IMG/VR virus record: IMGVR_UViG_3300037234_000698
Length of the DNA: 64,000 bases
Direction: 5' to 3' (one strand)
From: an uncultured virus (IMG/VR IMGVR_UViG_3300037234_000698)
Lineage: Duplodnaviria > Heunggongvirae > Uroviricota > Caudoviricetes
The first letter of the stretch is position 1. Every line of letters begins with the position of its first letter. Made by a program: the position numbers and the translations under genes. Below, one piece after another: positions 9,046-46,951 of this stretch. The notes below the pieces were generated by a model that did no database searches, was not told the origin of the DNA, and worked only from the letters and a program-made list of their open reading frames with translations.

Positions 9046-9622
9046 CGGCCGCCTCCTTTTCCATGGCTTCGAGCTCGTCGTCGGTGTACTCGCCCAGCCC
9101 CTCCTCGCCGTCGCCGAGCATACCCTTGGGCTTCTCGGCCTTCTGCAACTCGGGCAGGGCGTGGCCGGAGCCGATCTGCCTGGCGAGCGCCTTGCCCTCG
9201 GAGTAGATCGCCTTGATCTCTTCGAGGGTCGGCACGCTGGCCGCGGCCGGTAGCGCGAGGTCGCGCTTGCCATCGTGCCCAGCCGGAAGCTGGGCGTTGG
9301 CCATGGCGTTGCCGTACTTCGAGATCGCCGCGCGCAACTCCTTGAACGGCGGGCGCTTGAGCGGCTCGGAGTCGGGGCGGTCGATCACGCGCTGGCCGAT
9401 GCAGCGCGGGCAGATGTCACCCAGGCTGCCGCCGGACACGCTACCGGCGCCCACACACTCGGGGCACGGCATCTTCGGATTGCCCAGAAACGCCAGCTCC
9501 TCGTAGAGCTCCTCGGCTTCGTTGAGCGCTTGCGACCGCTCGCGCAGGTCGTCGTCGGTTAGCGAGTCCACCACGTCGGCGAGCTCGTCGTCGGTCAGTT
9601 CAGAATCTTCGTGCTCGGGCAT
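9038..9622 (-). CDS. hypothetical protein with DnaJ-like CxxCxGxG zinc motif
   Basis: CPECVGAG...CPRCIG. Confidence 0.65.
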   Translation of the reverse strand: MPEHEDSELTDDELADVVDSLTDDDLRERSQALNEAEELYEELAFLGNPKMPCPECVGAGSVSGGSLGDICPRCIGQRVIDRPDSEPLKRPPFKELRAAISKYGNAMANAQLPAGHDGKRDLALPAAASVPTLEEIKAIYSEGKALARQIGSGHALPELQKAEKPKGMLGDGEEGLGEYTDDELEAMEKEAAGE

Positions 9623-10110
9623 TCCTTGTCTCCTTCGAGTTGGCTGGTGATCACATCGACACACTCGGCGATGCTCATAAGATCCGTTTGCACGGTGATG
9701 CCATGGGTGGGCGCGTCGTAGGGCGCATCCCATCCGGTGACGCCGGCGATCTCCCCGGCCCTGGCGCGGCGGTAGAGCCCCTTCGGATCCCGCGCCCAGG
9801 CGACGCTCGGGGGGCACGCCACATAGACCTGCACAAACGTGATCCCGTGGGCCTGGGTCAGGTAGCGCACGAGCCGCCGATCCCGCCGGTACGGCGAAAC
9901 GCAGGCCACGACTACGTCGCCGCCGTGCTTGATCGCGTTGACGGCCATGACCATCACATTCCGGCACCGGCCCTCGCGGCTGAAGTCCTGGTCGCCGTGG
10001 AGGGCGCGGGCCTCGTCGCCGTCGAGCAGCTTGGCGTGGACCGCTTCGGCTAGAGCCTTGGCCAGCGTGGTCTTGCCGCTGGCGGGGATCCCGGTGAGCC
10101 AGATGATCAT
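9595..10110 (-). CDS. cysC: adenylyl-sulfate (APS) kinase
   Basis: IWLTGIPASGKTTLA, LLDGD, FSREGR..N, VSPY, RDPKGLY..ARAGEI...TG...PY. Confidence 0.92.
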   Translation of the reverse strand: MIIWLTGIPASGKTTLAKALAEAVHAKLLDGDEARALHGDQDFSREGRCRNVMVMAVNAIKHGGDVVVACVSPYRRDRRLVRYLTQAHGITFVQVYVACPPSVAWARDPKGLYRRARAGEIAGVTGWDAPYDAPTHGITVQTDLMSIAECVDVITSQLEGDKECPSTKILN

Positions 10111-16208: not shown

Positions 16209-16517
16209 CTACGCGGACGGGAGTGAAATGCCCGACTCGGCCGGCGAAAGGATATTCGAGCCTTCGACGCCCTCTGGCCCCTCGGACACCCAGATCACAT
16301 CCTCGGCCCGGAAAAGGAACGGCATCGACACCACGCGCGGCCCCGCCCCCGTCGCCATCTGGGCCTGCTGCTCGATCCGGTAGATGCCCGGGAAGTCGGT
16401 TTCCGTGATCCGGCCGGGACCGATGCCCCCGACGCCCTGCACCAGGGCGAGATCACCCTTCAGCTTGACCTGGATCTCCTTGTCGGTCCCCACGAAGGTT
16501 TTAAGTAGCTCTTCCAT
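16209..16517 (-). CDS. hypothetical protein
   Basis: AGGAG RBS; start MEELLK. Confidence 0.65.
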   Translation of the reverse strand: MEELLKTFVGTDKEIQVKLKGDLALVQGVGGIGPGRITETDFPGIYRIEQQAQMATGAGPRVVSMPFLFRAEDVIWVSEGPEGVEGSNILSPAESGISLPSA

Positions 16518-17688
16518 CTGCGATCTCCTTGAGAGTGGTGCCCAAAAGCTGGGCGACTGGTTCGTAACCGTACACGCGCTCGAGGCGAGCTCGCGATTCG
16601 GTCGCATCGTATGGCAATGTGCGGTCCTCGTAGACCGCGCGCATCTTCTGGCCGAGCTCGACGAGGTTGGGCTCGGCCCAGGTCTGCCGGCAATCCACGC
16701 CAGGGGGGAGCGCCACGCGCGAGTGCTGCACGAAGCTCCCGCCGTCCTTGGTGATCTCCCCGCGCACCTCGGTGCCGAAGCACGGCGTTGGCTGGTAGTC
16801 GACGTACTGGACCCACTCGTAGTCGTCGAGAAAATCCACGAATCCGCCGCAGCCGGGGGTCACGATCTTGCGCGCCATGATGGCGGCCTCAAAGTGGCCC
16901 AGGCCGAAACCCTCGCCGCGAGTCGCGGAAACGAAGCAGTCGGCGCCGGCGTGGAGCTCGACAAGCTGCTCCTCGGTCAGCTGCTCGTTGGGTACCTGTA
17001 GCCCTGGCAAAGCCTCGGCCGGCACGCCGGTCCTGGCCAGGAGCGATCTGACCTCGGTGAAGTCGGCGCCGCTGCAGATCAGATAGAGCGCGACGTTGTC
17101 GGCCTTCGTGAACTCGTGAAGGTAGGCCTTGATCAACCCCAGGGCGTTCTTGCGCTCACCCCAGGCTCCAATCGAGTAGAAGCGGAAGGGGTCGCCGGTC
17201 GCCAGGCTCGTGGGCACCATGCGGTGGTCCCAGAACTCCGGCTCGAAGCAGTGGGGCACGACGTGGACCGACACCAGGCCGTTGGCCACCGCGCCGTTGA
17301 CGTCGATGGCCTTCTGGCAGAACTCGCTGGGAACGATCACCGCGTCGTAGCCGGCGAGCGCGGCCCGAAGGTCGCTCGGCATCCGGTTGGTTTCCCAGGT
17401 GGTGAGCGCAACGTGCTTTGCCGCCCCGGGGTCGAGCAGACCGTTCTCTACCAGGGCCGCCAGCGCGCGAGGAGTCGTGTGATAGACCGCCACATCCGCG
17501 AGAGGAAGCTCCCTCCCGACGAGCCGCGCAAGCTGGTGATAGCGCGGCTCGAGCTGGGTTCCGCGGTCGCCGAGCGCGACGATTTCGACTTCGTCGTCGG
17601 TGTACTCGTCGAGCGCTTTGAGGTAGTCGTGGGCTGCGCGGCCGTAGCCGGTGAGCCGGGCGAAGTGACAGTGGTAACGGATCCGCAT
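16501..17688 (-). CDS. glycosyltransferase family 4 (GT-B)
   Basis: TGYGRAA, TTWET, RKN, ADCFVSATRGEGFGLGHFEA. Confidence 0.9.
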   Translation of the reverse strand: MRIRYHCHFARLTGYGRAAHDYLKALDEYTDDEVEIVALGDRGTQLEPRYHQLARLVGRELPLADVAVYHTTPRALAALVENGLLDPGAAKHVALTTWETNRMPSDLRAALAGYDAVIVPSEFCQKAIDVNGAVANGLVSVHVVPHCFEPEFWDHRMVPTSLATGDPFRFYSIGAWGERKNALGLIKAYLHEFTKADNVALYLICSGADFTEVRSLLARTGVPAEALPGLQVPNEQLTEEQLVELHAGADCFVSATRGEGFGLGHFEAAIMARKIVTPGCGGFVDFLDDYEWVQYVDYQPTPCFGTEVRGEITKDGGSFVQHSRVALPPGVDCRQTWAEPNLVELGQKMRAVYEDRTLPYDATESRARLERVYGYEPVAQLLGTTLKEIADGRAT

Positions 17689-18604: not shown

Positions 18605-19480
18605 CTACTGGTATCCGAAGGCCTGGTTGTAGCCGCGGAACTTGGACATGACCAGCTGGGCGATGTCCCGCGGAACGTGCTTCTGCCAGTCGTCGTCCCT
18701 GGGTTCGATCTTCCCAGTCCCATCGTGGGGGAACTTGTTGTTGTAGAGCCCGTCCACGTCCTGGTTGCCGACCGAGTCCTTGACGTCGTCGAAGTCATGC
18801 TCGAACGGCTCTTCGCCCAGCGCCGCGTAGATTCTGTCGATGACCATCTGCGGGGCCTGCACGAACGTCTCGTACTGGACGACGTGGACGAAGGGCTTGC
18901 CCTCCTGGTTTCGGAGATTGCGCCGGATGAGGTCTTCGATGCCGAGGATCTGCTGGCCCAACATCCCGTTCGGCGCGAACATCCGGTCGGCGCGATTGTA
19001 CGAGGTGAGCTCGACGGCGTTGCCGGCCTCATCGATCATCGGGTTTTTCGCGTGCTGCTTCTCAACCGAGGCGAAGATCGCTCGCAGGTCGCGAACGCAG
19101 ATGAAGAGCTGGGCCGTGGGGAACAGCTGATTGAGCAGCGGCGCGTTCAAATTCCAGAATCTGCACTTGTCGAGGATCACCTCGCCGCGGCCCGCGTACC
19201 ACTCCTCGACGAGCGCCCGCGCAGCGCGCGTCATGCGGTCCTGCGCGTCGTCCTTGTCCACGATCATCGCGCTCTTGATCTCGGGGGACCGTGACCAGAG
19301 GTTGCTGATCGCGCGGACGGTCTGCGCCATGCAGGACGTGGAGCTCGCATGGAAGCGCGGGTTTTGATTGATCGTGTTGCAGAGGAGGGTCGAGCCGCTT
19401 CGGGGCATACCCGACAAGCAGTTGAATTTCATAGCGTGTCCATTTCGGCTGCGAGTGCGGCTGCGAGGTTTGCGCTTCAT
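18605..19480 (-). CDS. sulfotransferase-family protein
   Basis: SGMPRSGSTLL (5'-PSB loop), VRDLRAIFAS (3'-PB), VQYE.F...P. Confidence 0.9.
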   Translation of the reverse strand: MKRKPRSRTRSRNGHAMKFNCLSGMPRSGSTLLCNTINQNPRFHASSTSCMAQTVRAISNLWSRSPEIKSAMIVDKDDAQDRMTRAARALVEEWYAGRGEVILDKCRFWNLNAPLLNQLFPTAQLFICVRDLRAIFASVEKQHAKNPMIDEAGNAVELTSYNRADRMFAPNGMLGQQILGIEDLIRRNLRNQEGKPFVHVVQYETFVQAPQMVIDRIYAALGEEPFEHDFDDVKDSVGNQDVDGLYNNKFPHDGTGKIEPRDDDWQKHVPRDIAQLVMSKFRGYNQAFGYQ

Positions 19481-22500: not shown

Positions 22501-23100
22501 CTAGTAGGCGATCTCCAGCGATGCCATCACCTCGACGTTCCCAGACCCAATCGCGCTTGCCTTTACCGCCCTAATGGTGATCAGGTCGCCCGCCGCAAAC
22601 GCGACCGTGTTGGCGAGATCCGAGGCGTCGCCCACGGCGCCGGTCGCGAGAGTGCAAGTGATAATCGACGCAACGCCGTTCTGGTCAACGGAGTACACTA
22701 CGCTGTTGCCGTTGCCGTTGGCGAGGTTGTGCCGCACTCTCAGATTCCTGACGGTGCCGGCGCGGGGTAGTCGAAAGGCATGGTGGTCGACGTTGTCCGC
22801 GGTCGCTTGCTCGTAGCCGGGGTCCAACCAGCGGGTGTCTGCGGACGCGGCCACGCTGTTGTTGCCCCAGGTCAGGACAGACGAGCCCGCGCTGCCCAGG
22901 ATGGTGGTGAGGAGCTTCGACCAGGCGATGGCCGCGGCGCCGGTCTTGAGCCAGAGCTCGCCGGCCGTGGCGACGTAGCGCATGTAGGTGCTGCCCTCGG
23001 GAGCCGCCAGGCCGCCGCCGGCGCTCGGGTCGGCGGTGCCGGCCAGCTTCCGCGGGTTCGCCGTGAAGTGGATTTCCTCGATGCGCTGTAGCTTGCTCAT
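22501..23100 (-). CDS. spike paralog
   Basis: Shared N-terminal domain plus a beta-rich C-terminal domain. Confidence 0.75.
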   Translation of the reverse strand: MSKLQRIEEIHFTANPRKLAGTADPSAGGGLAAPEGSTYMRYVATAGELWLKTGAAAIAWSKLLTTILGSAGSSVLTWGNNSVAASADTRWLDPGYEQATADNVDHHAFRLPRAGTVRNLRVRHNLANGNGNSVVYSVDQNGVASIITCTLATGAVGDASDLANTVAFAAGDLITIRAVKASAIGSGNVEVMASLEIAY

Positions 23101-23109
23101 GCTCGCCCC

Positions 23110-23754
23110 CTACCCGATCTGATGCGCCATTAGCTGCATGTAGACCGGCGTTATCGTGCCGGTCGGCTGGGCGTCGCTTGAAACCCTCACCTCGACGCTG
23201 TCGCCCGTGACGGTGGCGTGCTGTCCCACGAAGCCGGCGCTACCGACATCGCCGCCGGATGAGAGCTTGCGGCGGCATCCAAGGCCCGGGATCGGATTGC
23301 CGAACGAGTCGTAGGCCAGGAACGTCAACGTCGAGTTGGGTGTCCCGAGAAAGCTGATCTGGAACACGACCTCAACGATGCTGACCGGCGTGCCGCCGTA
23401 GGTGATCTTGTCCTGCGTGTGGTCGGGGGTGTAGTAGAGCGGGGCGCCGTAGTTGGCGGCGAATCCCAGCACCTTTACGAACGCCCCTGTGAGTCCGGTC
23501 TGTTGTGTGCCTCCGTTGTCCACGTACATCCCAGCGCGCCCCTGGGTGAGCGTGAGAGCGCCGGCGATTCGCTGCCAGGCCGTGTCCGCGGCTCCGGTTT
23601 TGACGTAGAGCTCACCGGCCGTGGCGACGTAGCGCATGTAGGTGCTGCCCTCGGGAGCCGCGACGCCGGCACCAGCCGAGGGATCGACGATGCCGGCCAG
23701 CTTGCGAGGGTTGGCGGTGAAGTGGATTTCTTCGATGCGTTGTAGCTTGCTCAT
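23110..23754 (-). CDS. spike paralog with C1q/TNF-like beta-sandwich C-terminal domain
   Basis: N-terminus nearly identical to 22501-23100; C-terminus unrelated. Confidence 0.72.
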   Translation of the reverse strand: MSKLQRIEEIHFTANPRKLAGIVDPSAGAGVAAPEGSTYMRYVATAGELYVKTGAADTAWQRIAGALTLTQGRAGMYVDNGGTQQTGLTGAFVKVLGFAANYGAPLYYTPDHTQDKITYGGTPVSIVEVVFQISFLGTPNSTLTFLAYDSFGNPIPGLGCRRKLSSGGDVGSAGFVGQHATVTGDSVEVRVSSDAQPTGTITPVYMQLMAHQIG

Positions 23755-23760
23755 TGCGAC

Positions 23761-24723
23761 CTAGAAGGCGAACCAGCGGAATTGCGTTGCGCGGACGTGC
23801 GCCACCCATTTGCGAAGCGTCTCGTCGCCTGGCGTGACCTGCACCTCGATGGAGCCGAGGACGCTATTGCCGACCAGATCGACCACGTCACCGCGTTGGT
23901 TGACGAGCTCGTCGATTTCGACCGGCCCCTGGATGTCCACGGTGTTTCCGGTAGAGCGACGGCCGATCACGCAGCGGAGGATCCACCCGCCGAGCTGGGA
24001 GAGGCCCCCCTGGAGCTCGTGGCCGCCGATCAGCCTCACCTCGATGATCCAGGCATAACGGATGTTCGCCAGGTCCAGTGAGTTGAGCGCGGTCGCAGGC
24101 TCGATGCCATCGAGAGTTAGGACGTGCAGGTTCGTGTCGTTGCTCGTCGCCCGCACGACCATCTCCATGGACTGGGCGTCGCCTTGCTCGTTGAACTGCC
24201 CACCGGCTAGCGCCTTCGAGCCCAGCCAGCGGGCCTGCGATTGCTTGCCCTGTGCCGACGAATGGCCTGCCGCCGCCTGGCACTGCTCTCCAGAGCAGAA
24301 CGTGTCGGCTCCACTCGCGCGGTTGTTCTGCCCGGCCGCAATGAACGAGCGGGCTCCGCTGGCGACTTCCGAGCCGATGGATCGGGTCTGCTGGAAGTCG
24401 GCGGCGAGCGCACCTCGATTGCCGCCTCCGTTGTCCATGCGGATCCTCCGGCCGTTGTTAACCGGCTGGAGCCTCGTGCCGTCGTCGGTCCACACGGCTA
24501 CGCCTGCGCCAGTGGCGGCCTTCGACCAGGCGGTCGCCGCCGCCCCCGTCTTAATCCAGAGCTCACCGGCGGCGCCAACGTAGCGCATGTAGTTCGAGCC
24601 CTCGACCGCGGGGACGCCACCTCCCGCGGTCGGATCGACCGTGCCGGCGATCACGGAGGGGTTGCCGGCCCCGCCGCTGATCACGATGTACTGCTCTGCT
24701 CCTCCGCGAACTCCGATGCTCAT
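23761..24723 (-). CDS. spike paralog
   Basis: Shared N-terminal domain; short ASG..S repeats. Confidence 0.75.
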   Translation of the reverse strand: MSIGVRGGAEQYIVISGGAGNPSVIAGTVDPTAGGGVPAVEGSNYMRYVGAAGELWIKTGAAATAWSKAATGAGVAVWTDDGTRLQPVNNGRRIRMDNGGGNRGALAADFQQTRSIGSEVASGARSFIAAGQNNRASGADTFCSGEQCQAAAGHSSAQGKQSQARWLGSKALAGGQFNEQGDAQSMEMVVRATSNDTNLHVLTLDGIEPATALNSLDLANIRYAWIIEVRLIGGHELQGGLSQLGGWILRCVIGRRSTGNTVDIQGPVEIDELVNQRGDVVDLVGNSVLGSIEVQVTPGDETLRKWVAHVRATQFRWFAF

Positions 24724-24782
24724 GGCGTCTCCTGTGCAATCTGCCTTACAACGAGCGACATACGGCCTAGACCGCTAGCGCG

Positions 24783-25406
24783 CTACGAGATAGCGAACGA
24801 CACCTCCATCACGGCCTCGAGGTCCAGGGTGATGGGCGCGTACGAGGCGAGCGTGGTGATCTCGACGCCCAGCAGGTCGCCGGCCACGAACGAGTCGACG
24901 CCAGCGGCCTGGGTGGCCTCGCCGCCAGAGGGGTTGCCTCCGGCGTTGTGGCTGATCGCCAGCGTGCCGGTTGCGCCGTTCACCGTGACCGTGGCGATCA
25001 GGGCGTCGGCGGTCGCGTCGGTGATCGCGCCCGTGAGCCGGGTGCCCAGGCCGACGATGCTGCCGGCGCGGATCGCCTTGATGTCGTCGAACGAAGTCGA
25101 GACGAGCGCGAACAGGTCCACGTCGGTCTGCGATACGCCCACGTTCTGCTGCGTCCACTTCTCGCCGAGCCACTCGCGCGAGACTTGCGCGCCCGGGTCG
25201 ACCTCCGTCCATGCGGTCGCCGCGGCGCCCTCCTTGAGCCAGAGCTGGCCTGCAGCCGCGCCGTAGCGCAGATACAGTGAGCCCTCCTGGGCGGCAACGC
25301 CGCCGCCTGCGCTCGGGTCCACTGTCCCGGCCAGTAGCTCGGGGTCGCCCGCGCCGCCACTGATCAGGATTACGTTGTCTGTTCCGCCTCTTCTTGCTGT
25401 GCTCAT
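24783..25406 (-). CDS. spike paralog
   Basis: Shared N-terminal domain; C-terminal domain shared with 25417-26433. Confidence 0.75.
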   Translation of the reverse strand: MSTARRGGTDNVILISGGAGDPELLAGTVDPSAGGGVAAQEGSLYLRYGAAAGQLWLKEGAAATAWTEVDPGAQVSREWLGEKWTQQNVGVSQTDVDLFALVSTSFDDIKAIRAGSIVGLGTRLTGAITDATADALIATVTVNGATGTLAISHNAGGNPSGGEATQAAGVDSFVAGDLLGVEITTLASYAPITLDLEAVMEVSFAIS

Positions 25407-25416
25407 GATCGTTCTC

Positions 25417-26433
25417 CTAGAACTCTAAGTCCATCCAGGCTTCGACGTCCGTGGTCACAGGCGTGAAGGTCTGCAGGGTTGTGATCTCGATGCCGAGAAG
25501 ATCCCCAGCAACGAAGGTATCGATAGCGGCTGCTTGGACTGCCTGGCCGCCGCTCGGATTTACGCCACTTGAGTGAGCGATCTGAAGGCTGCCGCCCACG
25601 CCGTTGATCGTCACCTTGACGATTGCGCTGTTCGCGGTTGCGTCGGTGAGCGCCTCGGTGAAGCGCGTGGAAAGGCCGACGATGCTGCCGGCGCGGATCG
25701 CCTTGATCGAATCGAAGGACACGGACATGAGCGCCGACAGATCGACCTCTGCCTGGCTGTCCGCGACGTTCTCCTGGTGCCACTTCTCCGGTGGGGCATA
25801 CCTGTCGAGCCCCCCGACACCGCCGACGGTGATCGGATCGTTAATGGCGCCGACCGCGGCGATTGCCGTGAAGGTAACGCCGGTCTTGGTACCCTTGACG
25901 TTGACGCGCATCCAGTTGGCGATCACCTCGCGGTTGCGGAGGCTGTTGCCCGACTGGAAGCCGGCGCCGCAGGCCGCGTAGTCCACGCCGTCCTCGGAGC
26001 TCTCCACCGTGACCAGTGCGCCCTTGAAAGAGCCGCCCACCACGATAGTGGTGAAATTGCCCAAAGCCGACACGTCCACCGGAGCGCCGTTGCCGTCGCC
26101 GACCGGCATCGGCAGGACGACGAAATTGCCGCCGTTGTCGTTGGCGCCCACGTCGCAGTTGGCGCTGAACGGCACGCCTGACTTGCGACCCTTGACGTGG
26201 ACGCGCATATACTGCGCGGCCACGTCCTTGGTTTTCTTCTCGCCCGAGCTCTGGAAGGTAATCAGCGGCGCCCAGGTGTTGCCGCCGTCCTCGGACACCT
26301 GGACGGTGACAGTGACGCCTGGGAAGCTGCCCGTGCATTGGACGGTCTTGCTTTTGCCCATGGCCGAGGTATCGACCGCGGCGCCAGCGCCGTTTAGGAC
26401 GGGAAATGGAAGGTCGACAAAAAGGTTTGCCAT
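25417..26433 (-). CDS. putative vertex/spike protein with two tandem beta-sandwich repeats
   Basis: NG.GA.VD.SA.G...VTV..SEDG...FQS...MRV.VKG.K.GV.F occurs twice. Confidence 0.75.
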   Translation of the reverse strand: MANLFVDLPFPVLNGAGAAVDTSAMGKSKTVQCTGSFPGVTVTVQVSEDGGNTWAPLITFQSSGEKKTKDVAAQYMRVHVKGRKSGVPFSANCDVGANDNGGNFVVLPMPVGDGNGAPVDVSALGNFTTIVVGGSFKGALVTVESSEDGVDYAACGAGFQSGNSLRNREVIANWMRVNVKGTKTGVTFTAIAAVGAINDPITVGGVGGLDRYAPPEKWHQENVADSQAEVDLSALMSVSFDSIKAIRAGSIVGLSTRFTEALTDATANSAIVKVTINGVGGSLQIAHSSGVNPSGGQAVQAAAIDTFVAGDLLGIEITTLQTFTPVTTDVEAWMDLEF

Positions 26434-26532: not shown

Positions 26533-26745
26533 CTAGCCCCAGAGATCCTTCTGGAAGTTGTCCCAGACCCTCGGAAAAACGACCAGCAGTCCGACGGCCG
26601 CGATGGCCAGAAGGCCGACGGCGCCGATGCCGCCCGCGACGCTGCCGGTTGGCTCGGGGCTGCCGCAGCAACCGATGCTCTGGAGCGGCGCGCCGTTCAT
26701 GTAGAGTCGGCTTCCCGGCATCTTCTTGTAGTAACCGTTACGCAT
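26533..26745 (-). CDS. small membrane protein
   Basis: Start MRNGYY; C-terminal TM. Confidence 0.6.
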   Translation of the reverse strand: MRNGYYKKMPGSRLYMNGAPLQSIGCCGSPEPTGSVAGGIGAVGLLAIAAVGLLVVFPRVWDNFQKDLWG

Positions 26746-26989
26746 CGGATTTCCCCTTCTCTCCCGTGATGAACTTCCGGAGCCCAAAGAACCCGGCGAT
26801 GGGAATGCCGACCAGGGCGAGCGCCTGCAGCGCTTCCCAGAATGCCGCCTTCTCCTGGGCCTTGACCCGCCGCACGTCGAGCGTGACGCTTTGCCGTTCG
26901 AGCTCGAGCCGGGCATCGTCGCGAGTCTCGCGGCGCTCGACGAGGTCGGGCGCCGCGTCCTCCTGGCCTACTGATCGGTAGTAGCTCAT
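26738..26989 (-). CDS. small membrane protein
   Basis: MSYYRSVGQ; TM followed by a basic tail. Confidence 0.7.
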   Translation of the reverse strand: MSYYRSVGQEDAAPDLVERRETRDDARLELERQSVTLDVRRVKAQEKAAFWEALQALALVGIPIAGFFGLRKFITGEKGKSDA

Positions 26990-28173
26990 CGCCCGCTTCC
27001 AACCCAGCGCGCCTGGAAGCCCTGGGGGTCGATGGCGAAGCGGCGAGCTCGCGCAAGGATCCGGCGGTAGGCCTTCTTCTGCTGCTGTTTGTGATCGAAC
27101 TCGTACTGGTTGAACCGGGCCATGGCGGCGCGAGTCCGGCCAGGGGTGTCGATGGGGAGCCCCTCGTGCTCGGGCACGGCGAAGTCGGCGCTGGGGAGCT
27201 CGTGGCGCTCCTCGGCAGTGATCGCCGGGTTGGTGGAGTAGCCCCGGAACTGGTTGAACTCGACGAGCGTTTCGCGCTCGCTCTCATCGGCGCCGGGGTG
27301 AGGGCGATAGCCCTCGTTGGGGCCGCCGTCGCCGGGGCCTGCCCAGAAAGCGATGGGGGTCGAGTCGCGATAGACGGTGCCTCCCAGCAGGGTCAGCGTG
27401 GTGTAGAGCCGCTCGCGCTCGCGGCTGCGCCTGGACGTGGCGTAGTGCGCCTCGCTGGCTCGGCCTGGGTTGGAGCGCGGCTTCATAGTGATGTCCCAGT
27501 CGCCGATGTAGCGCTCGGCGGCCTCGTCGGCTTCCCTGGGCGCCATCTGCAGCGCCTCGTCGCGGTCGTAGGAGATGGTCGACCACTCGCTTCCGAGCAG
27601 GCGGCCGTTCTGCCAGACGGCCGGTAGCCAGCCGCCCTGGCGCTCGTTCTTGTTCTTGACCACGCCGTACTCGAACACGAGCTCGTCGTCGGCGTACTCG
27701 GGTGCCGGGTTGCCGCGCACCAGGCGGTCGAGGCCCTCCTCGGTGATCTGGAGCTGCCGGCTACCGCCCTGGCCCATCACGTCCTCGACCAGTCCCGCCT
27801 TCCGCAGTCGGTTGACCGTCGTGGAGCCGAAGTGCCAGGACGACTTCGGGCCTTCGCGCTGGAGTTGGTCGAGCGCTTCGAGCTGCTTGGCGGTCAGGCC
27901 GCGCGCCGGATTGAACAGCGAGCCCTGGGGGTCGTCGGGCGGCTCGCCGCCGAAGAGAGCGCCCTGCTGTTGCTTGCGGAGCTTGGGCGGCGGCTTCACG
28001 CCTGGCGGCTTACGGTCGAGCTCGACCATGCCGATGCTCGTCTGGCCCTGCTTCCGCAGCCGGTTGAGGTGCGAGTAGGCGCGCTCTTCGTCGGCCGTGG
28101 CCGAGATGTACTCCGGAGGCTGGCCCTCGACGATGCGAGCAACGCAGTAGTAGGTGCGCGGGTTGTGCATCAT
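26986..28173 (-). CDS. NP-punctuated multi-module protein including winged-HTH-like and DUF6582-like modules
   Basis: Start MMHNP at an ATGA overlap; five NP junctions; LT..QLEAL..L...T...L...GLV...ITEEG; ER..LP..DFA.P...P......AA.ARF.Q. Confidence 0.75.
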   Translation of the reverse strand: MMHNPRTYYCVARIVEGQPPEYISATADEERAYSHLNRLRKQGQTSIGMVELDRKPPGVKPPPKLRKQQQGALFGGEPPDDPQGSLFNPARGLTAKQLEALDQLQREGPKSSWHFGSTTVNRLRKAGLVEDVMGQGGSRQLQITEEGLDRLVRGNPAPEYADDELVFEYGVVKNKNERQGGWLPAVWQNGRLLGSEWSTISYDRDEALQMAPREADEAAERYIGDWDITMKPRSNPGRASEAHYATSRRSRERERLYTTLTLLGGTVYRDSTPIAFWAGPGDGGPNEGYRPHPGADESERETLVEFNQFRGYSTNPAITAEERHELPSADFAVPEHEGLPIDTPGRTRAAMARFNQYEFDHKQQQKKAYRRILARARRFAIDPQGFQARWVGSGR

Positions 28174-28481
28174 GGCGACTCCACCCAGGCCGCCCTGGCC
28201 ATCGAGTAGCACGCGACCTGCTCGTCGTTGGCGTTCTCGACCTGCTCGCCGGCGTTCCGTCCAAGCCCGGCCGCCTGCAGAGCGGAGTTGTCGTCGTACG
28301 GCTCGGCAATGAGACGGGCGATCTCGTAGACGTAGACCTCGGCGTCGTCGAAGACGAACCAGAACCACGGCGGCGCGCTGTTCTGCTTGTGGCCGTACGC
28401 GAACCACTCCTCGAGCTCCTCGATCAGCACGCCGCGCATGATCGAAATCTCATCTCTGTCGGGTTCGTGAAAGCTCGGCAT
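28170..28481 (-). CDS. hypothetical protein
   Basis: GGAG RBS; coupled ORF. Confidence 0.65.
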   Translation of the reverse strand: MPSFHEPDRDEISIMRGVLIEELEEWFAYGHKQNSAPPWFWFVFDDAEVYVYEIARLIAEPYDDNSALQAAGLGRNAGEQVENANDEQVACYSMARAAWVESP

Positions 28482-32123: not shown

Positions 32124-32534
32124 TTAGCAGGCCCCGAGGGAGCCGAGGCCACAGCCGCCCAGCGAGCCCAGGCCGTTGCTGCCGAGGGAGCCGACTCCGG
32201 CGAGCTCCAGCGACTTGACGAGGTGGTCGCACGAGGAGGTGGGCGCACGGTTGCCCTGGAAGTTCCAGCAGACCGGCGCGCCCGACAGGTTCTTCTTGAG
32301 GAACAGCCCGTTCTTCGGGTCGATTGCGAGGATCGGCTTCGAGCCGGTGTTGCTCGGGCCGGGCTTGCCCTTCACGATCTGGCTCGTGTAGGCGGTGCCC
32401 ATCGTGATCCCCTTCGCGGCTGGCGCCGCGGCCTTGCCCTTGCCCCGCAGAAAGAAATACCAGATGCCGGCGGCGGCGACGGCGCCCCCGATCAGCAACA
32501 TGGTGGTGTCTGGGTTCTTCTTGCGTGCCATCAT
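32124..32534 (-). CDS. N-anchored membrane protein with NP motif and (G/S)LG-repeat tail
   Basis: RKKNPD, TM, ending GVGSLGSNGLGSLGGCGLGSLGAC. Confidence 0.75.
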   Translation of the reverse strand: MMARKKNPDTTMLLIGGAVAAAGIWYFFLRGKGKAAAPAAKGITMGTAYTSQIVKGKPGPSNTGSKPILAIDPKNGLFLKKNLSGAPVCWNFQGNRAPTSSCDHLVKSLELAGVGSLGSNGLGSLGGCGLGSLGAC

Positions 32535-34640: not shown

Positions 34641-35939
34641 CTAGTTGCCGAACCCGCCGGCGAAAATGCCGCCGTAGAGCACGCCGGGCTTGTCGTAGCC
34701 CGTGCCGGCCCGCGCGATCTTGCGAGTGAAGCTGCGGGTCGGGATGGCCGCCACCATAGGCTTGCGGCCGATTTGCCGGAGCATGGAACCTCGCGCGGTG
34801 CCGCCGAGGTAGGCGCGACTCAGGGGATCGCCGCCGAGCTCTTCCTCGACACCGAGATCCTCTTCCAGGCCGAGCTCCTCTTCGAGCGCGCCCAGCTCTT
34901 CCTCGAGCTGGCCGACCTCGACGTAGTCGCTCATGGTGATGTCGTCGTCGATGGGCTCGGCGCCGACTTCGAGGTAGTCGCCCACCTCGACGTAGTCAGA
35001 CATCGCCTCGTCGTAGATGCCATAGTCGGCCAGGCCGAACATGGCTTTGACGTTGGCCGGGGCGAACGCCGACAGGACGTTGTCGATCAGGTTGAGGCCG
35101 GTTCCGACCATGATGCCGGGGCGCCACTTCTTGAGCACCTTGACCTTCTTGGTCGCCATGTGCGCGCCGACGAACAGGAGGCCTGCCATCGCCGTGCTCT
35201 GGTACTGAGCCGGGATCATGTTGAAGCCGGGGATCTTGCCGGCGAGCTTGTAGCTCACGAACCGCGCGCCGTAGAGCGAAGCGGCGACTGGGAGTGCCTG
35301 CTTGATGACTCCACCGAGCGTGTTCATCTTCGCGTTGGGATTCGACCGCATCCGGTACCGGCGCTTGGTCGCGTGGGCCAGGGGCGTCTTGTACTTATTC
35401 TTGACCGACCGGCGAGCTCGCAGCATCGAGCGCTGGGTGCTCGGGCGCGGATTCCGACGCTTCCGACGGACGCGACGCTTCCGGCGACTGGCCGGGTTGC
35501 GCACGGTCACGCTCACGGTGCGGCGACGCTTGGTGGTGCGGCGGCGAGCGCGAGTGCGAGTGGCCGGCTTGCGGGTGCGGCGCCTGGCGGCTGCTTTGCG
35601 CTTGCGCGTGCGGGCGGCCTTCTTGCCAGCGGCTACGCGCTTCGGACTCTTCCGCTTCGTGGCTGCGCGCTTCGTGGTGCGGCGCTTGCGAGCCTTCCGG
35701 GCGGGGTTCTTTCGTGTGCGGCGAGCTTTGAGGCGACGCATTCGCTTGCTGTGCGCCTTCTTAGCCGCCCCGAACAGTTTTTTGGCCATGGCCGTTCTCC
35801 CTTTCGTGGCTGGTTTGGTGGCGGCGTTTTTCCGAACGCCGGTGGGCCGTCTTAGTGTTGCTCGCGAGCCTTCCGCAGTGCGACGGCGGGTGGGCCGGCT
35901 TCGTCGCTTCGGTGCTGGATTGGCGTACCAGAGTGGCAA
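34641..35939 (-). CDS. putative core/membrane protein: very basic NP-punctuated N-terminus, hydrophobic middle, acidic repeat tail
   Basis: R/K-rich first ~200 aa with ANP, RKNP, VRNP, RRNP, RSNP; DY(V/L)EVG x3; EE(E/D)LG x4; second RBS-led in-frame ATG at 35789. Confidence 0.8.
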   Translation of the reverse strand: MPLWYANPAPKRRSRPTRRRTAEGSRATLRRPTGVRKNAATKPATKGRTAMAKKLFGAAKKAHSKRMRRLKARRTRKNPARKARKRRTTKRAATKRKSPKRVAAGKKAARTRKRKAAARRRTRKPATRTRARRRTTKRRRTVSVTVRNPASRRKRRVRRKRRNPRPSTQRSMLRARRSVKNKYKTPLAHATKRRYRMRSNPNAKMNTLGGVIKQALPVAASLYGARFVSYKLAGKIPGFNMIPAQYQSTAMAGLLFVGAHMATKKVKVLKKWRPGIMVGTGLNLIDNVLSAFAPANVKAMFGLADYGIYDEAMSDYVEVGDYLEVGAEPIDDDITMSDYVEVGQLEEELGALEEELGLEEDLGVEEELGGDPLSRAYLGGTARGSMLRQIGRKPMVAAIPTRSFTRKIARAGTGYDKPGVLYGGIFAGGFGN

Positions 35940-36864: not shown

Positions 36865-37476
36865 CTACCCTGGCGCCTTCGCTACCGTGACGTTCCTCTT
36901 GCCGGCGCGTCGGCGCCGCGCTGCGAAGTCTTGGGCAGCGCGCTTCGTCGTGAATCTCCCCGCGACCTTGCGCCTACCACCTGGGCGCTGATCTACGCCC
37001 CAGTATTCCGCGACGTGCCATTTGATGTTCGTTCGACGAGAACGACCGCGTTTGCCCCACCGCCGGCCAGGATTGCGCCGCCGCCGCGTTGGTTTCTTTC
37101 GCACGAGGAAGTACCAGGCAGCGAGGCCCGCGGCGCCGAGCAGAAGGAGCTTCTGCTCGTTGTCGGACATGCCGGACCAGAACCCCAGCGGCGCGCCCCC
37201 TTCGCCGGGGTCAAGCGGTTCTGGTCCTGCGGGTCGGAGAGCTGGCCAGTCGCCGGGGGCAATTACGTGGGGGGGTTCGTCGGTGTCACCTTCCTCGCCG
37301 CGGAGGGCGGGGAAGTTCATTGAATAGGGAGTGAGTCCGGACTCTTCGATGTCGTACTCGCCGAGTCCGCGGCTCTCGGCAGCAGGGAGGCCCTGGGGGA
37401 CGCCGCCGGCGCCGCCATGCCAGTTGAAGGCGTAGCGACCGCCCTGGTATCCGAATCGGTAGTAGGGAGAGGACAT
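36865..37476 (-). CDS. membrane protein with basic RRRRNP tail
   Basis: RGLGE, PLGFW, TM, RRRRNPGRR. Confidence 0.75.
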   Translation of the reverse strand: MSSPYYRFGYQGGRYAFNWHGGAGGVPQGLPAAESRGLGEYDIEESGLTPYSMNFPALRGEEGDTDEPPHVIAPGDWPALRPAGPEPLDPGEGGAPLGFWSGMSDNEQKLLLLGAAGLAAWYFLVRKKPTRRRRNPGRRWGKRGRSRRTNIKWHVAEYWGVDQRPGGRRKVAGRFTTKRAAQDFAARRRRAGKRNVTVAKAPG

Positions 37477-41368: not shown

Positions 41369-41926
41369 CTAGGCCACTGGCCATATCTTGACGTGCTTGA
41401 CTCGTCGGAGCATCTCGCCGGAGTCCTCGGCGGCAACGGGGTCGAGAACGATCCACGTTGCCGTGCGCGGCTCGCGGACCTGGATGTAGACGTGCTGGTA
41501 CTGGCGTCTACCTTTAAACCGGAGGTCGCGGAAGGCGACGGTGACGATCCGGACCTCGCGGCCGAGCACGAGGAAGAGCCCGACAAGCAGGGTCACCAGA
41601 TCGTCGCAGTCCAGGCTCGGACGCCAGCCGCCGCGCAAGCGCTCGACCGCTTCCTTGATACGCGCCAGGATCTCGCGCGGTGAGCGCACGAGCTCGACGG
41701 TGCGGGGGTCGTTCGCGTAGCGGGTGTGGGAGAGGGTCCAGTAGTAGACCGCCAGGATCTCGGAGAGGTAGTCCTTAGACCCGAGGTTGCCGACGATGTC
41801 CTCGGCGAGCATCCGGAGCGGATAAAAGGTCTGCGCTTCGAGCGCTACCCGCTTGATGTGCGCGACAGTGTGCGGAGCCCCGCGAAAGGGCTCGGTGATC
41901 ACCCTGCCATGTGAGCCGAGTTGCAA
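41369..41926 (-). CDS. transglutaminase-like (papain-fold) cysteine protease; candidate virion maturation enzyme
   Basis: Y..DP..VEL...P; LDCDD (Cys), QHVY (His), W..LDP (Asp) triad. Confidence 0.85.
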   Translation of the reverse strand: MQLGSHGRVITEPFRGAPHTVAHIKRVALEAQTFYPLRMLAEDIVGNLGSKDYLSEILAVYYWTLSHTRYANDPRTVELVRSPREILARIKEAVERLRGGWRPSLDCDDLVTLLVGLFLVLGREVRIVTVAFRDLRFKGRRQYQHVYIQVREPRTATWIVLDPVAAEDSGEMLRRVKHVKIWPVA

Positions 41927-46198: not shown

Positions 46199-46951
46199 AT
46201 GAAAGCACTCGACCTTTTCTGCGGCGCCGGCGGCTCCGCAATGGGCCTGCACCGCGCAGGATTTGACGTGATCGGGATCGACATCAACCCAGACCTCAAC
46301 TACCCCTTCCCGTGGGTGGCCGCGGACGCCATGCCGCTCCTCAAGCGCATGGCGCGCGAAGGCCTCGGCGTTCTGCGCGAGTATGGCCTCGACCCGGACG
46401 GCATCTCGCTGATCTGGGCGAGCCCCCCTTGCCAGTCGTTCAGCGCCTACCGTCGCAAGGATCCGAAGCGCATCGGCGCCCAGGCGAAAGACCTGATCGC
46501 CCAGGTGCGCGGGTACCTGGAGCGCATCGGGCTCCCGTACATCATCGAGAACGTCGAGGCGGCTCCGCTGAAAGACGCGATCCGCCTCTGCGGCTCCAGC
46601 TTCGGGCTCGACGTTCGCCGGCACCGGCTGTTCGAGTGTTCGTTCCCCGTCGAGGCGCCGCCCTGCGATCACGCGCTGCACGTAGCGCGGGGCAAGCGGT
46701 TCCCAGGGGCGACCAACCGGCCGGCCGGCCGCTACACCTGTGAGATCGGCGTCTACCGGATCCCGCTGGCGATTCAGCGCGAAGTCATGGGCATCGACTG
46801 GATGACTCTCAAGGAGCTGTCGCAGGCGATCCCGCCAGCCTACAGCGAGTATCTGGCCGAGGAGTTCAAGGCGTGGGTGGCCGAGGAGTTCAAGGCAATC
46901 GTGGCCGAGAAGTCGGCCGCTCAACTGGACCTGTTTGGAGGAGCGCAATGA
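46199..46951 (+). CDS. short phage-type C5 cytosine methyltransferase
   Basis: DLFCGAGG, WASPPCQ, IIENV, RRHRLFE, MGIDWM..KELSQAIPPAY. Confidence 0.88.
   Translation: MKALDLFCGAGGSAMGLHRAGFDVIGIDINPDLNYPFPWVAADAMPLLKRMAREGLGVLREYGLDPDGISLIWASPPCQSFSAYRRKDPKRIGAQAKDLIAQVRGYLERIGLPYIIENVEAAPLKDAIRLCGSSFGLDVRRHRLFECSFPVEAPPCDHALHVARGKRFPGATNRPAGRYTCEIGVYRIPLAIQREVMGIDWMTLKELSQAIPPAYSEYLAEEFKAWVAEEFKAIVAEKSAAQLDLFGGAQ

What the first reader, a model, noticed from the sequence alone, without database searches (positions are those of the whole stretch)
26986..28173. Asn-Pro-punctuated polyprotein: one ORF divided into ~65-90-aa unrelated modules by NP motifs
Seen: MMH-NP, SLF-NP, VRG-NP, PRS-NP and YST-NP each fall at a junction between self-contained segments. 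One segment looks like a winged helix and the last resembles the stand-alone DUF6582 family. The same motif borders enzyme domains elsewhere: TH-NP before the SprT domain, RE-NP in 5165-6301, KS-NP and RP-NP around the Gp88-like domain, D-NP before the M23 anchor. It also occurs in RKK-NP, RRRR-NP and five times in 34641-35939. Inference: NP is a genome-wide processing or packaging signal that lets the virus string cargo effectors together, load them into the virion and release them by proteolysis.
Basis: partly seen in the sequence, partly recalled or inferred. Interest (0 to 1): 0.88.

Follow-up and report, generated by a model that had tools for sequence, protein, structure and literature searches.

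The report
Asn-Pro seams between swappable viral modules
One gene of an uncultured bacterial virus strings five small protein modules together, and each joint carries an asparagine-proline pair that relatives keep even when they reorder, drop or swap the modules; this looks like a cut-here mark, but no cutting has been shown.

Summary
The ORF 26986-28173 (-) is real: 395 aa with Asn-Pro at residues 4, 88, 155, 235 and 315. Shuffling gives 5 or more NP with probability 0.0014. An AlphaFold model puts all five NP between folded elements.

The decisive result is a 44%-identical homolog, P0003. It has the same modules in another order (M1-M3-M2-M5 against M1-M2-M3-M4-M5), lacks M4 exactly from seam to seam, and keeps NP at every joint.

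Three modules (M1, M3, DUF6582) occur elsewhere as free-standing 66-120 aa proteins, and their ends coincide with the NP positions.

I scanned 190 module flanks from 113 related proteins without choosing a dipeptide in advance. NP was by far the most enriched: 42 flanks against 9 expected, 0 of 500 shuffles reaching it. SP, TP and DP were not enriched. Arg sits at -2 in 39 of 89 seams.

The "genome-wide" claim fails. Outside four proteins the window has 39 NP against about 29 expected.

Best reading (about 0.45): R-x-N-P seams are maturation cut sites of a modular, virion-core-associated polyprotein. An uncut linker or docking motif (about 0.3) is not excluded. Cleavage, the protease and packaging are untested. 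My literature searches found no description of this. Earlier notes of this scan report the same seams in other large uncultured viruses.

The parts
26986..28173 (-). ORF of the modular protein P0001 (395 aa plus stop)
   Evidence: identical database protein P0002; GGAG RBS and ATGA overlaps
28159..28164 (-). seam 1, Asn4-Pro5 (MMH-NP-RTYY)
   Evidence: invariant against P0003
27913..28158 (-). module M1 (aa 6-87): beta-beta-alpha-beta core 8-52, then a disordered tail
   Evidence: pLDDT about 94 for the core; free-standing homolog P0013 (89 aa) starts and ends within 1-3 residues of the seams
27907..27912 (-). seam 2, Asn88-Pro89 (SLF-NP-ARGL)
   Evidence: lies in the pLDDT<50 stretch 68-92
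27712..27906 (-). module M2 (aa 90-154): winged helix-turn-helix, MarR-like fold
   Evidence: only sequence homolog is the permuted copy in P0003 (E 1e-29)
27706..27711 (-). seam 3, Asn155-Pro156 (VRG-NP-APEY)
27472..27705 (-). module M3 (aa 157-234): unnamed beta-rich domain (EYG...GGW.P..W.NGR...GDW)
   Evidence: pLDDT 95-98; 76 hits among the best 150, many of them free-standing 66-100 aa proteins
27466..27471 (-). seam 4, Asn235-Pro236 (PRS-NP-GRAS)
   Evidence: invariant against P0003
27232..27465 (-). module M4 (aa 237-314): orphan, low-confidence segment; absent from P0003 exactly from seam to seam
   Evidence: no homolog; pLDDT 34-59
27226..27231 (-). seam 5, Asn315-Pro316 (YST-NP-AITA)
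26989..27225 (-). module M5 (aa 317-395): DUF6582-like basic helical domain
   Evidence: PF20223 E 5.4e-6; phrog_16160; 74 hits; pLDDT 77-96
26738..26989 (-). downstream gene coupled by an ATGA overlap: 83-aa protein with a C-terminal membrane helix
   Evidence: its tail matches the C-terminus of the NP-type protein P0139 (16/29 identical, E 1e-9), where it is fused to the polyprotein
28170..28481 (-). upstream gene coupled by an ATGA overlap: 103-aa acidic protein
   Evidence: no significant similarity to the modules of P0004 or P0044
34641..35939 (-). P0009: protamine-like basic arm with 4-5 (R/K)-x-N-P sites, hydrophobic segment, acidic repeat tail
36865..37476 (-). P0010: membrane helix, then RRRR-NP, then a basic 67-aa C-terminal module
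32124..32534 (-). P0011: MMARKK-NP followed by a membrane helix
41369..41926 (-). transglutaminase-core (papain-like Cys) protein; candidate protease only
   Evidence: PF01841 E 6.8e-5, 23.6 bits against cut-off 23; candidate Cys/His/Asp motifs read from the sequence; no link to the seams was tested

Best explanation
The gene encodes a beads-on-a-string precursor: five autonomous modules of about 65-85 aa. They are M1, a MarR-like winged helix (M2), the unnamed M3 domain, an orphan segment (M4) and a DUF6582 domain (M5). The joints are short exposed seams with the consensus (R)-x-Asn-Pro.

The seam is selected at the protein level and belongs to the junction, not to any module. Each 'NP + module' unit behaves as a cassette that relatives permute, delete, add or encode as a separate small gene.

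The most likely role of the seam is a maturation cut site. A virus-encoded protease would recognise R-x-N (with Pro favoured after it) and release the modules as small, mostly basic or DNA-binding proteins of the virion interior.

Shown here: the seams, their position between folds, their conservation through permutation, and their enrichment at module ends.

Inferred: cleavage, the identity of the protease (the transglutaminase-like protein at 41369-41926 is only a candidate), and the virion location.
For: 1. Permutation and indel exactly at seams. P0003 (44% identity) reads leader-NP-M1-NP-M3-NP-M2-NP-M5, against P0001's NP-M1-NP-M2-NP-M3-NP-M4-NP-M5. NP is invariant while the flanking residues differ.

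2. The model m9d7fed9d7f36 (mean pLDDT 74) places all 5 NP between secondary-structure elements. The same holds for 4 of 4 NP in the low-confidence P0006 model.

3. Unbiased dipeptide scan of 190 flanks (20 aa each) in 113 proteins. NP was top, with 42 flanks against 9.1-9.3 expected (z about 11; 0 of 500 shuffles). NP per 1000 aa was 10.5 in flanks, 0.66 in module cores and 2.15 elsewhere.

4. Seams coincide with the natural ends of free-standing modules. For M3, NP lies 7-11 aa before the anchor in 10 of 11 cases, against Met 6-12 aa before it in 31 of 42. On the C side the figures are 9 of 11 against 36 of 48. For M1, P0013 shows the same.

5. Replicate with modules not used for retrieval. 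The X module has NP within 24 aa upstream in 6 of 9 embedded copies, the GLPSGPF module in 5 of 5, and the TGMTAKG module in 3 of 3.

6. Extended motif. R at -2 in 39 of 89 seams (4.5x background), R/K at -1 in 31 of 89, nothing conserved after Pro. Where Pro is missing, R-x-N is often kept (RRNI, KRNI, RMNM, RANK, RRNA).

7. The codons vary (AAC/AAT with CCG/CCA/CCC/CCT), so the signal is in the protein.

8. The same DUF6582 domain in tailed-phage head-protease fusions is flanked by a different short motif, [RKH]-[LM]-D (33 of 57 downstream flanks, against NP in 4 of 57 and never both). This is what lineage-specific cleavage sites would look like.

9. DUF6582 is fused to a portal (P0053) and to head-maturation proteases. 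By the argument of Iyer et al. 2017 (PMC5512222, passages read), such fusions point to packaged proteins.
Against: - No cleavage product, proteome or protease-substrate link was seen or could be tested.
- Only 42 of 190 flanks carry NP. 23 of 34 embedded M3 copies have none within 30 aa, so modules fuse perfectly well without NP in other lineages.
- R at -2 occurs in only 2 of the 5 seams of this ORF.
- The list of 28 'NP-type' proteins used for the logo was hand-picked by the presence of NP.
- For DUF6582 an Asn/Asp just before the first helix may be part of the domain itself.
- No relative's genome could be fetched, so co-occurrence of seams with any protease family is unknown.
- Virion association rests on fusions seen in other, tailed phages. 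In this window no capsid, portal or terminase was recognised.
Confidence: 0.45

Rival explanations
1. The seams are never cut. R-x-N-P is a conserved linker element, such as a rigid kink or 'insulator' between independently folding domains. Alternatively it is a short docking motif, repeated once per module, that binds an assembly partner, the inner membrane or DNA.
For: - The seams lie in exposed linkers.
- They also occur right after membrane helices and inside polybasic arms, where a charge or docking role is natural (P0009-P0011; P0014, P0099, P0144, P0076).
- They occur at extreme N-termini (MSRRNP, MPRKNP, MKRRRRRNP), where a cut would remove only 4-8 residues.
- No protease link was found.
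Against: - A generic helix-cap or linker role predicts SP, TP and DP as well. These are not enriched (SP 7 against 14.4, TP 14 against 12.4, DP 22 against 18.5).
- Free-standing modules do not carry the motif, so it is not needed for folding.
- The parallel [RKH]-[LM]-D flanks in head-protease fusions look like processing sites.
Confidence: 0.3
2. The seams cut themselves without a protease, by Asn side-chain cyclisation at the Asn-Pro bond. This is asparagine-peptide-lyase chemistry, as in FlhB/YscU N|PTH or reovirus mu1, or slow spontaneous Asn-Pro/Asp-Pro scission inside the particle.
For: - Asn is the most conserved residue of the seam and Pro follows it.
- Two relatives use R-D-P at the same junctions: P0083 has 7 DP and 1 NP, and P0054 is similar. 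Asp-Pro is the other chemically labile bond (own knowledge).
- Self-cleavage at Asn is known, mostly in viral coat proteins (PMC3207474, passages read).
Against: - Known Asn lyases need a folded catalytic environment and conserved partner residues. Here nothing is conserved after Pro and the seams are disordered.
- None of the 5 seams is NPTH.
- Pro is replaceable in relatives (N-I, N-M, N-K, N-A), which argues against Pro-dependent chemistry.
Confidence: 0.08
3. The signal acts at the nucleic-acid or translation level. It could be a recombination micro-site for cassette exchange, or a ribosome pause or 2A-like 'StopGo' site.
For: - Breakpoints of permutation and deletion fall exactly on the NP codons.
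- R-x-N-P loosely recalls arrest and skip peptides that end in Pro (own knowledge).
- The rare codon AAT is used for 14 of 50 Asn before Pro, against 9.7% overall.
Against: - The codons at the seams vary freely.
- The AAT excess is the same at non-seam NP (10 of 38), so it is a context bias.
- No seam is NPGP and only one is NPG.
- No upstream nascent-chain motif is conserved.
Confidence: 0.05
4. Chance or composition: NP happens to fall between segments.
For: NP is mildly over-represented in the whole window (O/E 1.54), and high-GC proteomes are Pro-rich.
Against: - Shuffle P is 0.0014 for the ORF.
- NP is conserved through a module permutation.
- 0 of 500 shuffles reach the flank enrichment.
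- Control proteins of the same hit set have 43 NP against 43-44 expected.
Confidence: 0.02

Closest known systems
Polyvalent proteins of phages and conjugative elements (Iyer, Burroughs, Anand, de Souza, Aravind 2017; PMC5512222, passages read)
   Same: Many unrelated domains in one phage polypeptide; extensive domain shuffling; late-gene context; proposed packaging and processing into separate units; portal fusions used as evidence of packaging.
   Different: - Those proteins are large and enzyme-rich, and are thought to be processed by an embedded MPTase domain. No junction motif is described in the passages I read.
- Here the modules are 65-85 aa and non-enzymatic, there is no peptidase domain in the protein, and a defined R-x-N-P seam marks each joint.
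Core-protein precursors of adenovirus (pVII, pX/mu and others, cut by the AVP cysteine protease) and the asfarvirus polyproteins pp220/pp62 (recalled from own knowledge; PMC9910796 seen only as a search listing and abstract)
   Same: A short consensus site recurs in several basic, DNA-associated virion-core precursors of one virus. The virus encodes a cysteine protease among its morphogenesis genes.
   Different: Different site (GG-X or (M/I/L)XGX-G, recalled), eukaryotic hosts, and no cassette-like module exchange reported. Cleavage is not shown here.
Capsid-targeted internal proteins of T4 and giant phages, cut by the prohead protease (recalled; PMC5694885 and PMC7411985 seen only as listings and abstracts)
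   Same: Internal head or ejection proteins carry short protease sites and are trimmed during maturation.
   Different: Those sites end in Glu (recalled), there is usually one cut per protein, and the proteins are not multi-module chains. No HK97-type head genes were recognised in this window.
Asparagine peptide lyases cleaving Asn|Pro: FlhB/YscU (MEROPS N6, N|PTH) and reovirus mu1 (N7) (PMC3207474, passages read)
   Same: The scissile candidate is an Asn-Pro bond, and many members are virion proteins.
   Different: Those are single cuts inside a folded, conserved domain. Here there are multiple seams in disordered linkers with no conserved partner residues.
Junction motifs of polymorphic toxins (such as VENN of CdiA or DPxGL of Rhs) and 2A 'NPGP' peptides (both recalled, not tested against literature here)
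   Same: A very short conserved peptide marks the border where variable cassettes are exchanged or separated.
   Different: Different motifs, a single junction per protein (toxins) or a eukaryotic ribosome mechanism (2A). No seam here is NPGP.

Membership tests
DUF6582 (PF20223) | Match to the Pfam HMM at or above the gathering score | tested here: inconclusive
   27.1 bits against a cut-off of 27.3, E 5.4e-6, aa 321-382. Close homologs P0004, P0006, P0012, P0016 and P0149 pass. phrog_16160 matches at E 2.4e-4.
MarR-like winged helix-turn-helix (fold level) | H-H-H-beta-beta-H topology superposable on MarR-family DNA-binding domains | tested here: met
   Model residues 88-154: VIA-align Z 5.0-5.8, rmsd 2.4-4.2 A over 63-71 residues to 3nqo_B, 5f6f_A, 3bja_A, 2eth_B and 5h3r_A. 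Foldseek prob 0.99 to 3ech_B and 8ylh_B, but E 0.2. Z under 8 is only moderate support.
MarR family (sequence level) | Significant profile match | tested here: not met
   No MarR or HTH Pfam hit; the best is AphA_like at E 0.16.
Polyvalent proteins (Iyer et al. 2017) | Two to fifteen distinct domains in one phage or plasmid polypeptide, with shuffled architectures among relatives | tested here: met
   Five modules; permuted, deleted or split in relatives.
Polyvalent proteins (Iyer et al. 2017) | Contains conflict or enzymatic effector domains and often an MPTase peptidase | tested here: not met
   Pfam and PHROGs find only DUF6582. 0 of the 8 NP-rich relatives scanned (P0015, P0026, P0029, P0068, P0074, P0139, P0152, P0147) have any Pfam family.
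Polyvalent proteins (Iyer et al. 2017) | Context of a portal-terminase packaging module or a conjugation apparatus | tested here: inconclusive
   No portal, terminase or capsid family was recognised in 110 window proteins (Pfam) or in 48 of them (PHROGs). The gene does sit in a long co-directional late-looking block.
Protease-processed viral polyprotein | A recurring consensus site at every module junction | tested here: met
   NP at 5 of 5 junctions here and 4 of 4 in P0003. R at -2 in 39 of 89 family seams.
Protease-processed viral polyprotein | Demonstrated cleavage at the sites by a cognate protease | not testable with these tools
   No proteomic data. The candidate protease 41369-41926 has only a Transglut_core match (E 6.8e-5).
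Asparagine peptide lyase N6 (FlhB/YscU) | Asn|Pro-Thr-His motif within the conserved four-strand, four-helix domain | tested here: not met
   The seams read NPRT, NPAR, NPAP, NPGR and NPAI and lie in linkers. The family's features are taken from PMC3207474.
2A-like StopGo peptides | C-terminal NPG|P with a conserved upstream D(V/I)ExNPGP context (recalled) | tested here: not met
   0 of 5 seams are NPGP and 1 of 5 is NPG. No conserved upstream context.

The most novel reading that the evidence does not exclude
R-x-Asn-Pro is a dedicated cut-here code of a so far undescribed lineage of large, probably tailless, membrane-containing bacterial viruses. Virion-core and membrane-tethered proteins are made as chains of exchangeable 'NP + module' cassettes and released at the seams. 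This would be a prokaryotic-virus counterpart of adenovirus or asfarvirus core-precursor processing, combined with cassette shuffling.

A bolder sub-variant (about 0.08) is that the seams cut themselves at the Asn-Pro bond without any protease.
Probability: 0.4. Interest if true: 0.9.

Novelty: new variant of a known kind. Interest (0 to 1): 0.8.

Why it matters
If the seams are cut sites, a four-residue code would allow mature virion or core proteins to be predicted directly from sequence in a large group of uncultured viruses that otherwise have almost no annotation.

It would also explain how these viruses exchange tiny protein cassettes without breaking folds. It would define a new protease specificity (Asn/Asp at P1, Arg at P3) and provide a ready-made modular linker for engineering.

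Even if the seams are not cut, a strictly conserved junction peptide that survives module permutation is an unusual rule of protein architecture. It gives an immediately testable handle: five sites in one 44-kDa protein.

Tried and rejected
- **Genomic context of relatives.** The search for related loci with P0001 or the P0001+P0003 alignment found nothing in viral, metagenome or genome contigs. With the DUF6582 alignment it found only L001, a head-protease-fusion type and not an NP type.
  - With the M3 alignment it found L002 (a 1675+ aa protein with M3 but no seams) and L003 (free-standing M3).
  - With the X-module alignment it found L004-L008, where X is a free-standing 154-262 aa protein.
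  - No other window protein has a relative in any of these loci (tblastn).
  - Their NP-richest ORFs are not seam proteins; one is a helicase and one a stop-to-stop artefact.
- **Upstream gene 28170-28481.** I tested whether it is a split-off module related to the first module of P0004 or P0044. It is not significant (E 0.24-0.33).
- **Virus identity.**
  - No whole genome is held for the window.
  - tblastn of P0001, the 543-aa protein and the 328-aa protein against 50,697 phage records gave no match.
  - The 328-aa protein has no homolog but itself.
  - The Atlas look-up gave only scores up to 0.83.
  - The PDB sequence search with the transglutaminase-like protein gave E 0.33 or worse.
  - So capsid type and protease fold remain untested.
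- **Last word-index protein search**, on the X module of P0006: returned only itself.
- **Foldseek of the whole model:** nothing at E <= 1e-3.
- **Generic helix N-cap explanation:** rejected, because SP, TP and DP are not enriched.
- **Rare-codon pause at seams:** rejected, because the AAT excess is equal at non-seam NP.
- **Complex prediction of protease with a seam** was not run; the tool text says enzyme-substrate pairs are rarely informative.
- **Literature.** Full-text searches for DUF6582 (0 papers), DUF2213 (7, none on cleavage), Asn-Pro + autocleavage + bacteriophage (3, all on FlhB/HrcU), polyprotein/ejection-protein terms, prohead-protease cleavage-site terms, and asparagine peptide lyases found no description of NP-punctuated phage polyproteins.
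Full report
**The object.** On the minus strand, 26986-28173 encodes a 395-aa protein, P0001.
- The longer GTG-initiated frame listed by the ORF finder overlaps the better-coding upstream gene 28170-28481.
- The ATG at 28173 has a GGAG 5 nt upstream. It overlaps the upstream stop as ATGA, and the ORF's own stop overlaps the start of the next gene in the same way.
- An identical 395-aa protein is on record as P0002.
- Asn-Pro occurs at residues 4, 88, 155, 235 and 315 and cuts the protein into pieces of 84, 67, 80, 80 and 81 aa.
- 5 of its 13 Asn are followed by Pro. Only 0.14% of 100,000 shuffles reach five NP.

**Are the pieces modules?** An AlphaFold2 model built on a 55-sequence alignment (mean pLDDT 74) shows the following.

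| Module | Residues | Model | Confidence |
|---|---|---|---|
| M1 | core 8-52, tail 63-92 | beta-beta-alpha-beta core, disordered tail | pLDDT about 94 (core) |
| M2 | 95-153 | helix-helix-hairpin-helix unit | 61-84 |
| M3 | 164-232 | very confident beta-rich domain | 95-98 |
| M4 | 237-316 | poorly predicted | 34-59 |
| M5 | 320-392 | helical | 77-96 |

- All five NP lie between these elements.
- M2 superposes on MarR-family winged-helix domains over exactly residues 88-154 (Z 5.0-5.8; Foldseek local prob 0.99).
- M5 matches DUF6582 just under Pfam's threshold (27.1 against 27.3 bits).

**The decisive comparison.** A word-index search found one full-length relative, P0003 (335 aa, 44% identity, from a deltaproteobacterial MAG contig).
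- Its sequence reads leader-NP-M1-NP-M3-NP-M2-NP-M5.
- M2 and M3 have changed places, M4 is missing from seam to seam, and every joint is still NP.
- The residues on either side stay with their own module: RLVRG and RLARG end M2 in both proteins, whatever follows.

**A wider family.** An exhaustive phmmer search of 1.84 billion representatives gave 372 hits. I saw the best 150.
- M1, M3 and M5 hit independently. M3 gave 76 matches and M5 gave 74. M1 matched P0003, P0013, P0019 and P0035 (plus a repetitive protein, P0106, which I dropped). M2 matched only P0003 and M4 matched nothing.
- All three occur as free-standing proteins of 66-120 aa and also embedded in proteins of up to 955 aa.
- Splitting the hits at NP reveals a set of NP-punctuated multi-module proteins:
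  - P0132 has 7 NP in 364 aa against 0.7 expected.
  - P0044 has 8 in 521 aa.
  - P0015 has 7 in 717 aa.
  - Others are P0005, P0006, P0016, P0026, P0029, P0068, P0137, P0139 and P0149.
- These share further modules in varied orders.

**Statistics.** I took 190 flanks (20 aa on each side of an embedded M1, M3 or M5) from 113 proteins and asked which dipeptide is over-represented.
- NP came first, with 42 flanks against 9.1-9.3 expected (z about 11; 0 of 500 shuffles). The next were MD and LD, at z under 6.
- NP density per 1000 residues was 10.5 in flanks, 0.66 in module cores and 2.15 elsewhere; composition predicts 1.28.
- SP (7 against 14.4), TP (14 against 12.4) and DP (22 against 18.5) are not enriched. 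This is therefore not the generic helix-cap pattern.
- For M3 the NP sits where free-standing proteins begin and end:
  - N side: 7-11 residues before the anchor in 10 of 11 cases, against Met at 6-12 in 31 of 42.
  - C side: 4-8 residues after it in 9 of 11, against C-termini at 4-11 in 36 of 48.
- Modules that were not used for retrieval repeat the pattern. The X module has NP upstream in 6 of 9 embedded copies, GLPSGPF in 5 of 5 and TGMTAKG in 3 of 3.
- In 89 seams of 28 hand-picked NP-type proteins, Arg is at -2 in 39 (4.5-fold) and Arg/Lys at -1 in 31. Nothing is conserved after Pro.
- The codons vary, so selection acts on the peptide.

**Limits of the pattern.**
- Only 42 of 190 flanks (22%) have NP, and 23 of 34 embedded M3 copies have none within 30 aa. 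Seams are a habit of one group of viruses, not of the domains.
- Two relatives use R-D-P in the same places (P0083 with 7 DP, and P0054).
- In some junctions Pro is replaced while R-x-N stays.
- In tailed phages, DUF6582 sits inside head-maturation-protease fusion proteins (DUF2213 = phrog_530) or after a portal.
  - There it is followed by [RKH]-[LM]-D in 33 of 57 cases and by NP in 4, never both.
  - Two mutually exclusive short motifs around one domain, one of them in proteins that carry their own head protease, is what lineage-specific processing sites would look like. This is an inference.

**The 'genome-wide' claim.**
- My 111 crude gene calls contain 50 NP against 32.5 expected.
- Without this ORF and three basic or membrane proteins it is 39 against 29-30 (P 0.045).
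- The excess sits in the late block 19.7-44.7 kb (25 against 12-13).
- Related proteins outside the NP type have 43 against 43-44, so the baseline O/E is 1.0.
- The NP near SprT, GP88 and M23 are 26-125 residues from the domain ends, and NP also occurs inside conserved domains of the spike-like paralogs.
- The seam-like sites outside the ORF are these:
  - the protamine-like P0009 (RTRK-NP, TVR-NP, RKRR-NP, MRS-NP);
  - P0010 (membrane helix, then RRRR-NP, then a basic module);
  - P0011 (MMARKK-NP, then a membrane helix).

**Context.**
- None of the putative structural genes matches Pfam or PHROGs head, tail or packaging families, or any of 50,697 phage records.
- The block is full of small membrane-anchored proteins and has a polycationic core-like protein.
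- The 83-aa membrane protein coupled downstream of the ORF is fused to the end of the polyprotein in P0139.
- Earlier notes of this scan (unchecked AI notes) describe the same Asn-Pro seams, basic-NP-membrane proteins and NP-studded protamine-like core proteins. They place them in other uncultured viruses of 70-140 kb that they read as tailless, jelly-roll, membrane-containing.
- That fits this window, but I could not test the capsid fold here.

**Mechanism.**
- *Shown:* a protein-level junction motif in exposed linkers, conserved through permutation, deletion and gene splitting.
- *Most likely (0.45):* maturation cleavage at R-x-N|P by a viral protease. This would release small DNA-binding or basic modules inside the particle. 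The transglutaminase-core protein at 41369-41926 (E 6.8e-5; candidate Cys/His/Asp) is only a candidate.
- *Rivals:*
  - an uncut linker or docking motif (0.3);
  - protease-free Asn-Pro self-cleavage of the kind known from FlhB/YscU and reovirus mu1 (PMC3207474; 0.08);
  - a nucleic-acid or translational signal (0.05);
  - chance (0.02).

**Comparison and novelty.** The nearest concept is the polyvalent proteins of Iyer et al. 2017. Those are enzyme-rich, carry their own peptidase, and have no described junction code in the passages I read. Adenovirus and asfarvirus core-precursor processing is the nearest mechanism (recalled). My searches found no paper describing NP-punctuated phage polyproteins or DUF6582. 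I rate it a new variant of a known kind, with high interest, and stress that no cleavage has been shown.

Noticed in passing
window 34641-35939 (-): P0009 has three parts: a basic arm of about 200 aa (runs of R/K with 4-5 x-N-P sites), a hydrophobic middle, and an acidic tail with repeats (DYVEVGDYLEVG, LEEELGALEEELGLEEDLGVEEELG). It looks like a DNA-condensing core protein. Earlier scan notes describe the same architecture in other viruses.
   Followed up: partly
window 1413-2447 (+), 9595-10110 (-), 18605-19432 (-), 16501-17688 (-), 58494-59420 (+): The window encodes a PAPS-reductase-like domain, an APS kinase (E 1e-34), a sulfotransferase (E 6e-13) and two glycosyltransferases. This may be a virus-encoded sulfation and glycosylation pathway.
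   Followed up: no
window 3658-5160, 46199-46951, 46948-47874, 49738-50553 (+): Three C5 cytosine DNA methyltransferase genes and a Mom-family protein (E 3e-21), plus a ParB-like protein at 52742-53599. This suggests heavy DNA-modification capacity.
   Followed up: no
window 22501-26433 (-): There are paralog families among likely spike or fibre genes. 22501-23100 and 23110-23754 share an N-terminus (IEEIHFTANPRKLAG). 24783-25406 and 25417-26433 share a C-terminal domain of about 125 aa that contains an internal, conserved NP (GGNPSGG / GVNPSGG); 23761-24723 shares an N-terminal stretch (GAGNPSVIAGTVD) with 24783-25406 (GAGDPELLAGTVD). These NP are inside domains, not at seams.
   Followed up: no
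window 41369-41926 (-): A transglutaminase-core protein with candidate Cys (LDCDD), His (QHVY) and Asp (LDPV) sits between a 543-aa coiled-coil protein and 323-aa and 328-aa proteins. This gene order recalls portal-protease-scaffold-capsid, but none of them matches any family.
   Followed up: partly
proteins P0034, P0037, P0046, P0053, P0079 and others: In head-maturation-protease (DUF2213) fusion proteins of tailed phages, DUF6582 is flanked by VRMD upstream and GRLD downstream. [RKH]-[LM]-D occurs in 33 of 57 downstream flanks. This may be the unreported cleavage motif of that protease family.
   Followed up: partly
proteins P0083, P0054: A variant lineage uses R-Asp-Pro instead of R-x-Asn-Pro at the same module junctions. 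P0083 has 7 DP and 1 NP, with segments of 79, 54 and 132 aa among others.
   Followed up: partly
window, all 50 NP codon pairs: The rare Asn codon AAT (9.7% of Asn codons) is used in 14 of 50 Asn that precede Pro, at seams and non-seams alike. This is a codon-context bias (avoidance of AAC-CCN?).
   Followed up: partly
window 59430-60062, 62022-62636, 56088-56699, 60059-61405: Two M23 peptidases, an SLT lytic transglycosylase and a GP88-family protein cluster at the right end of the window. These are cell-wall-degrading functions.
   Followed up: no
L002 5543-10567 (+), IMG/VR contig of 23.6 kb: An open-ended protein of 1675+ aa carries an M3 domain near its end without NP seams. It is a giant polyvalent-type protein of another virus.
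   Followed up: no
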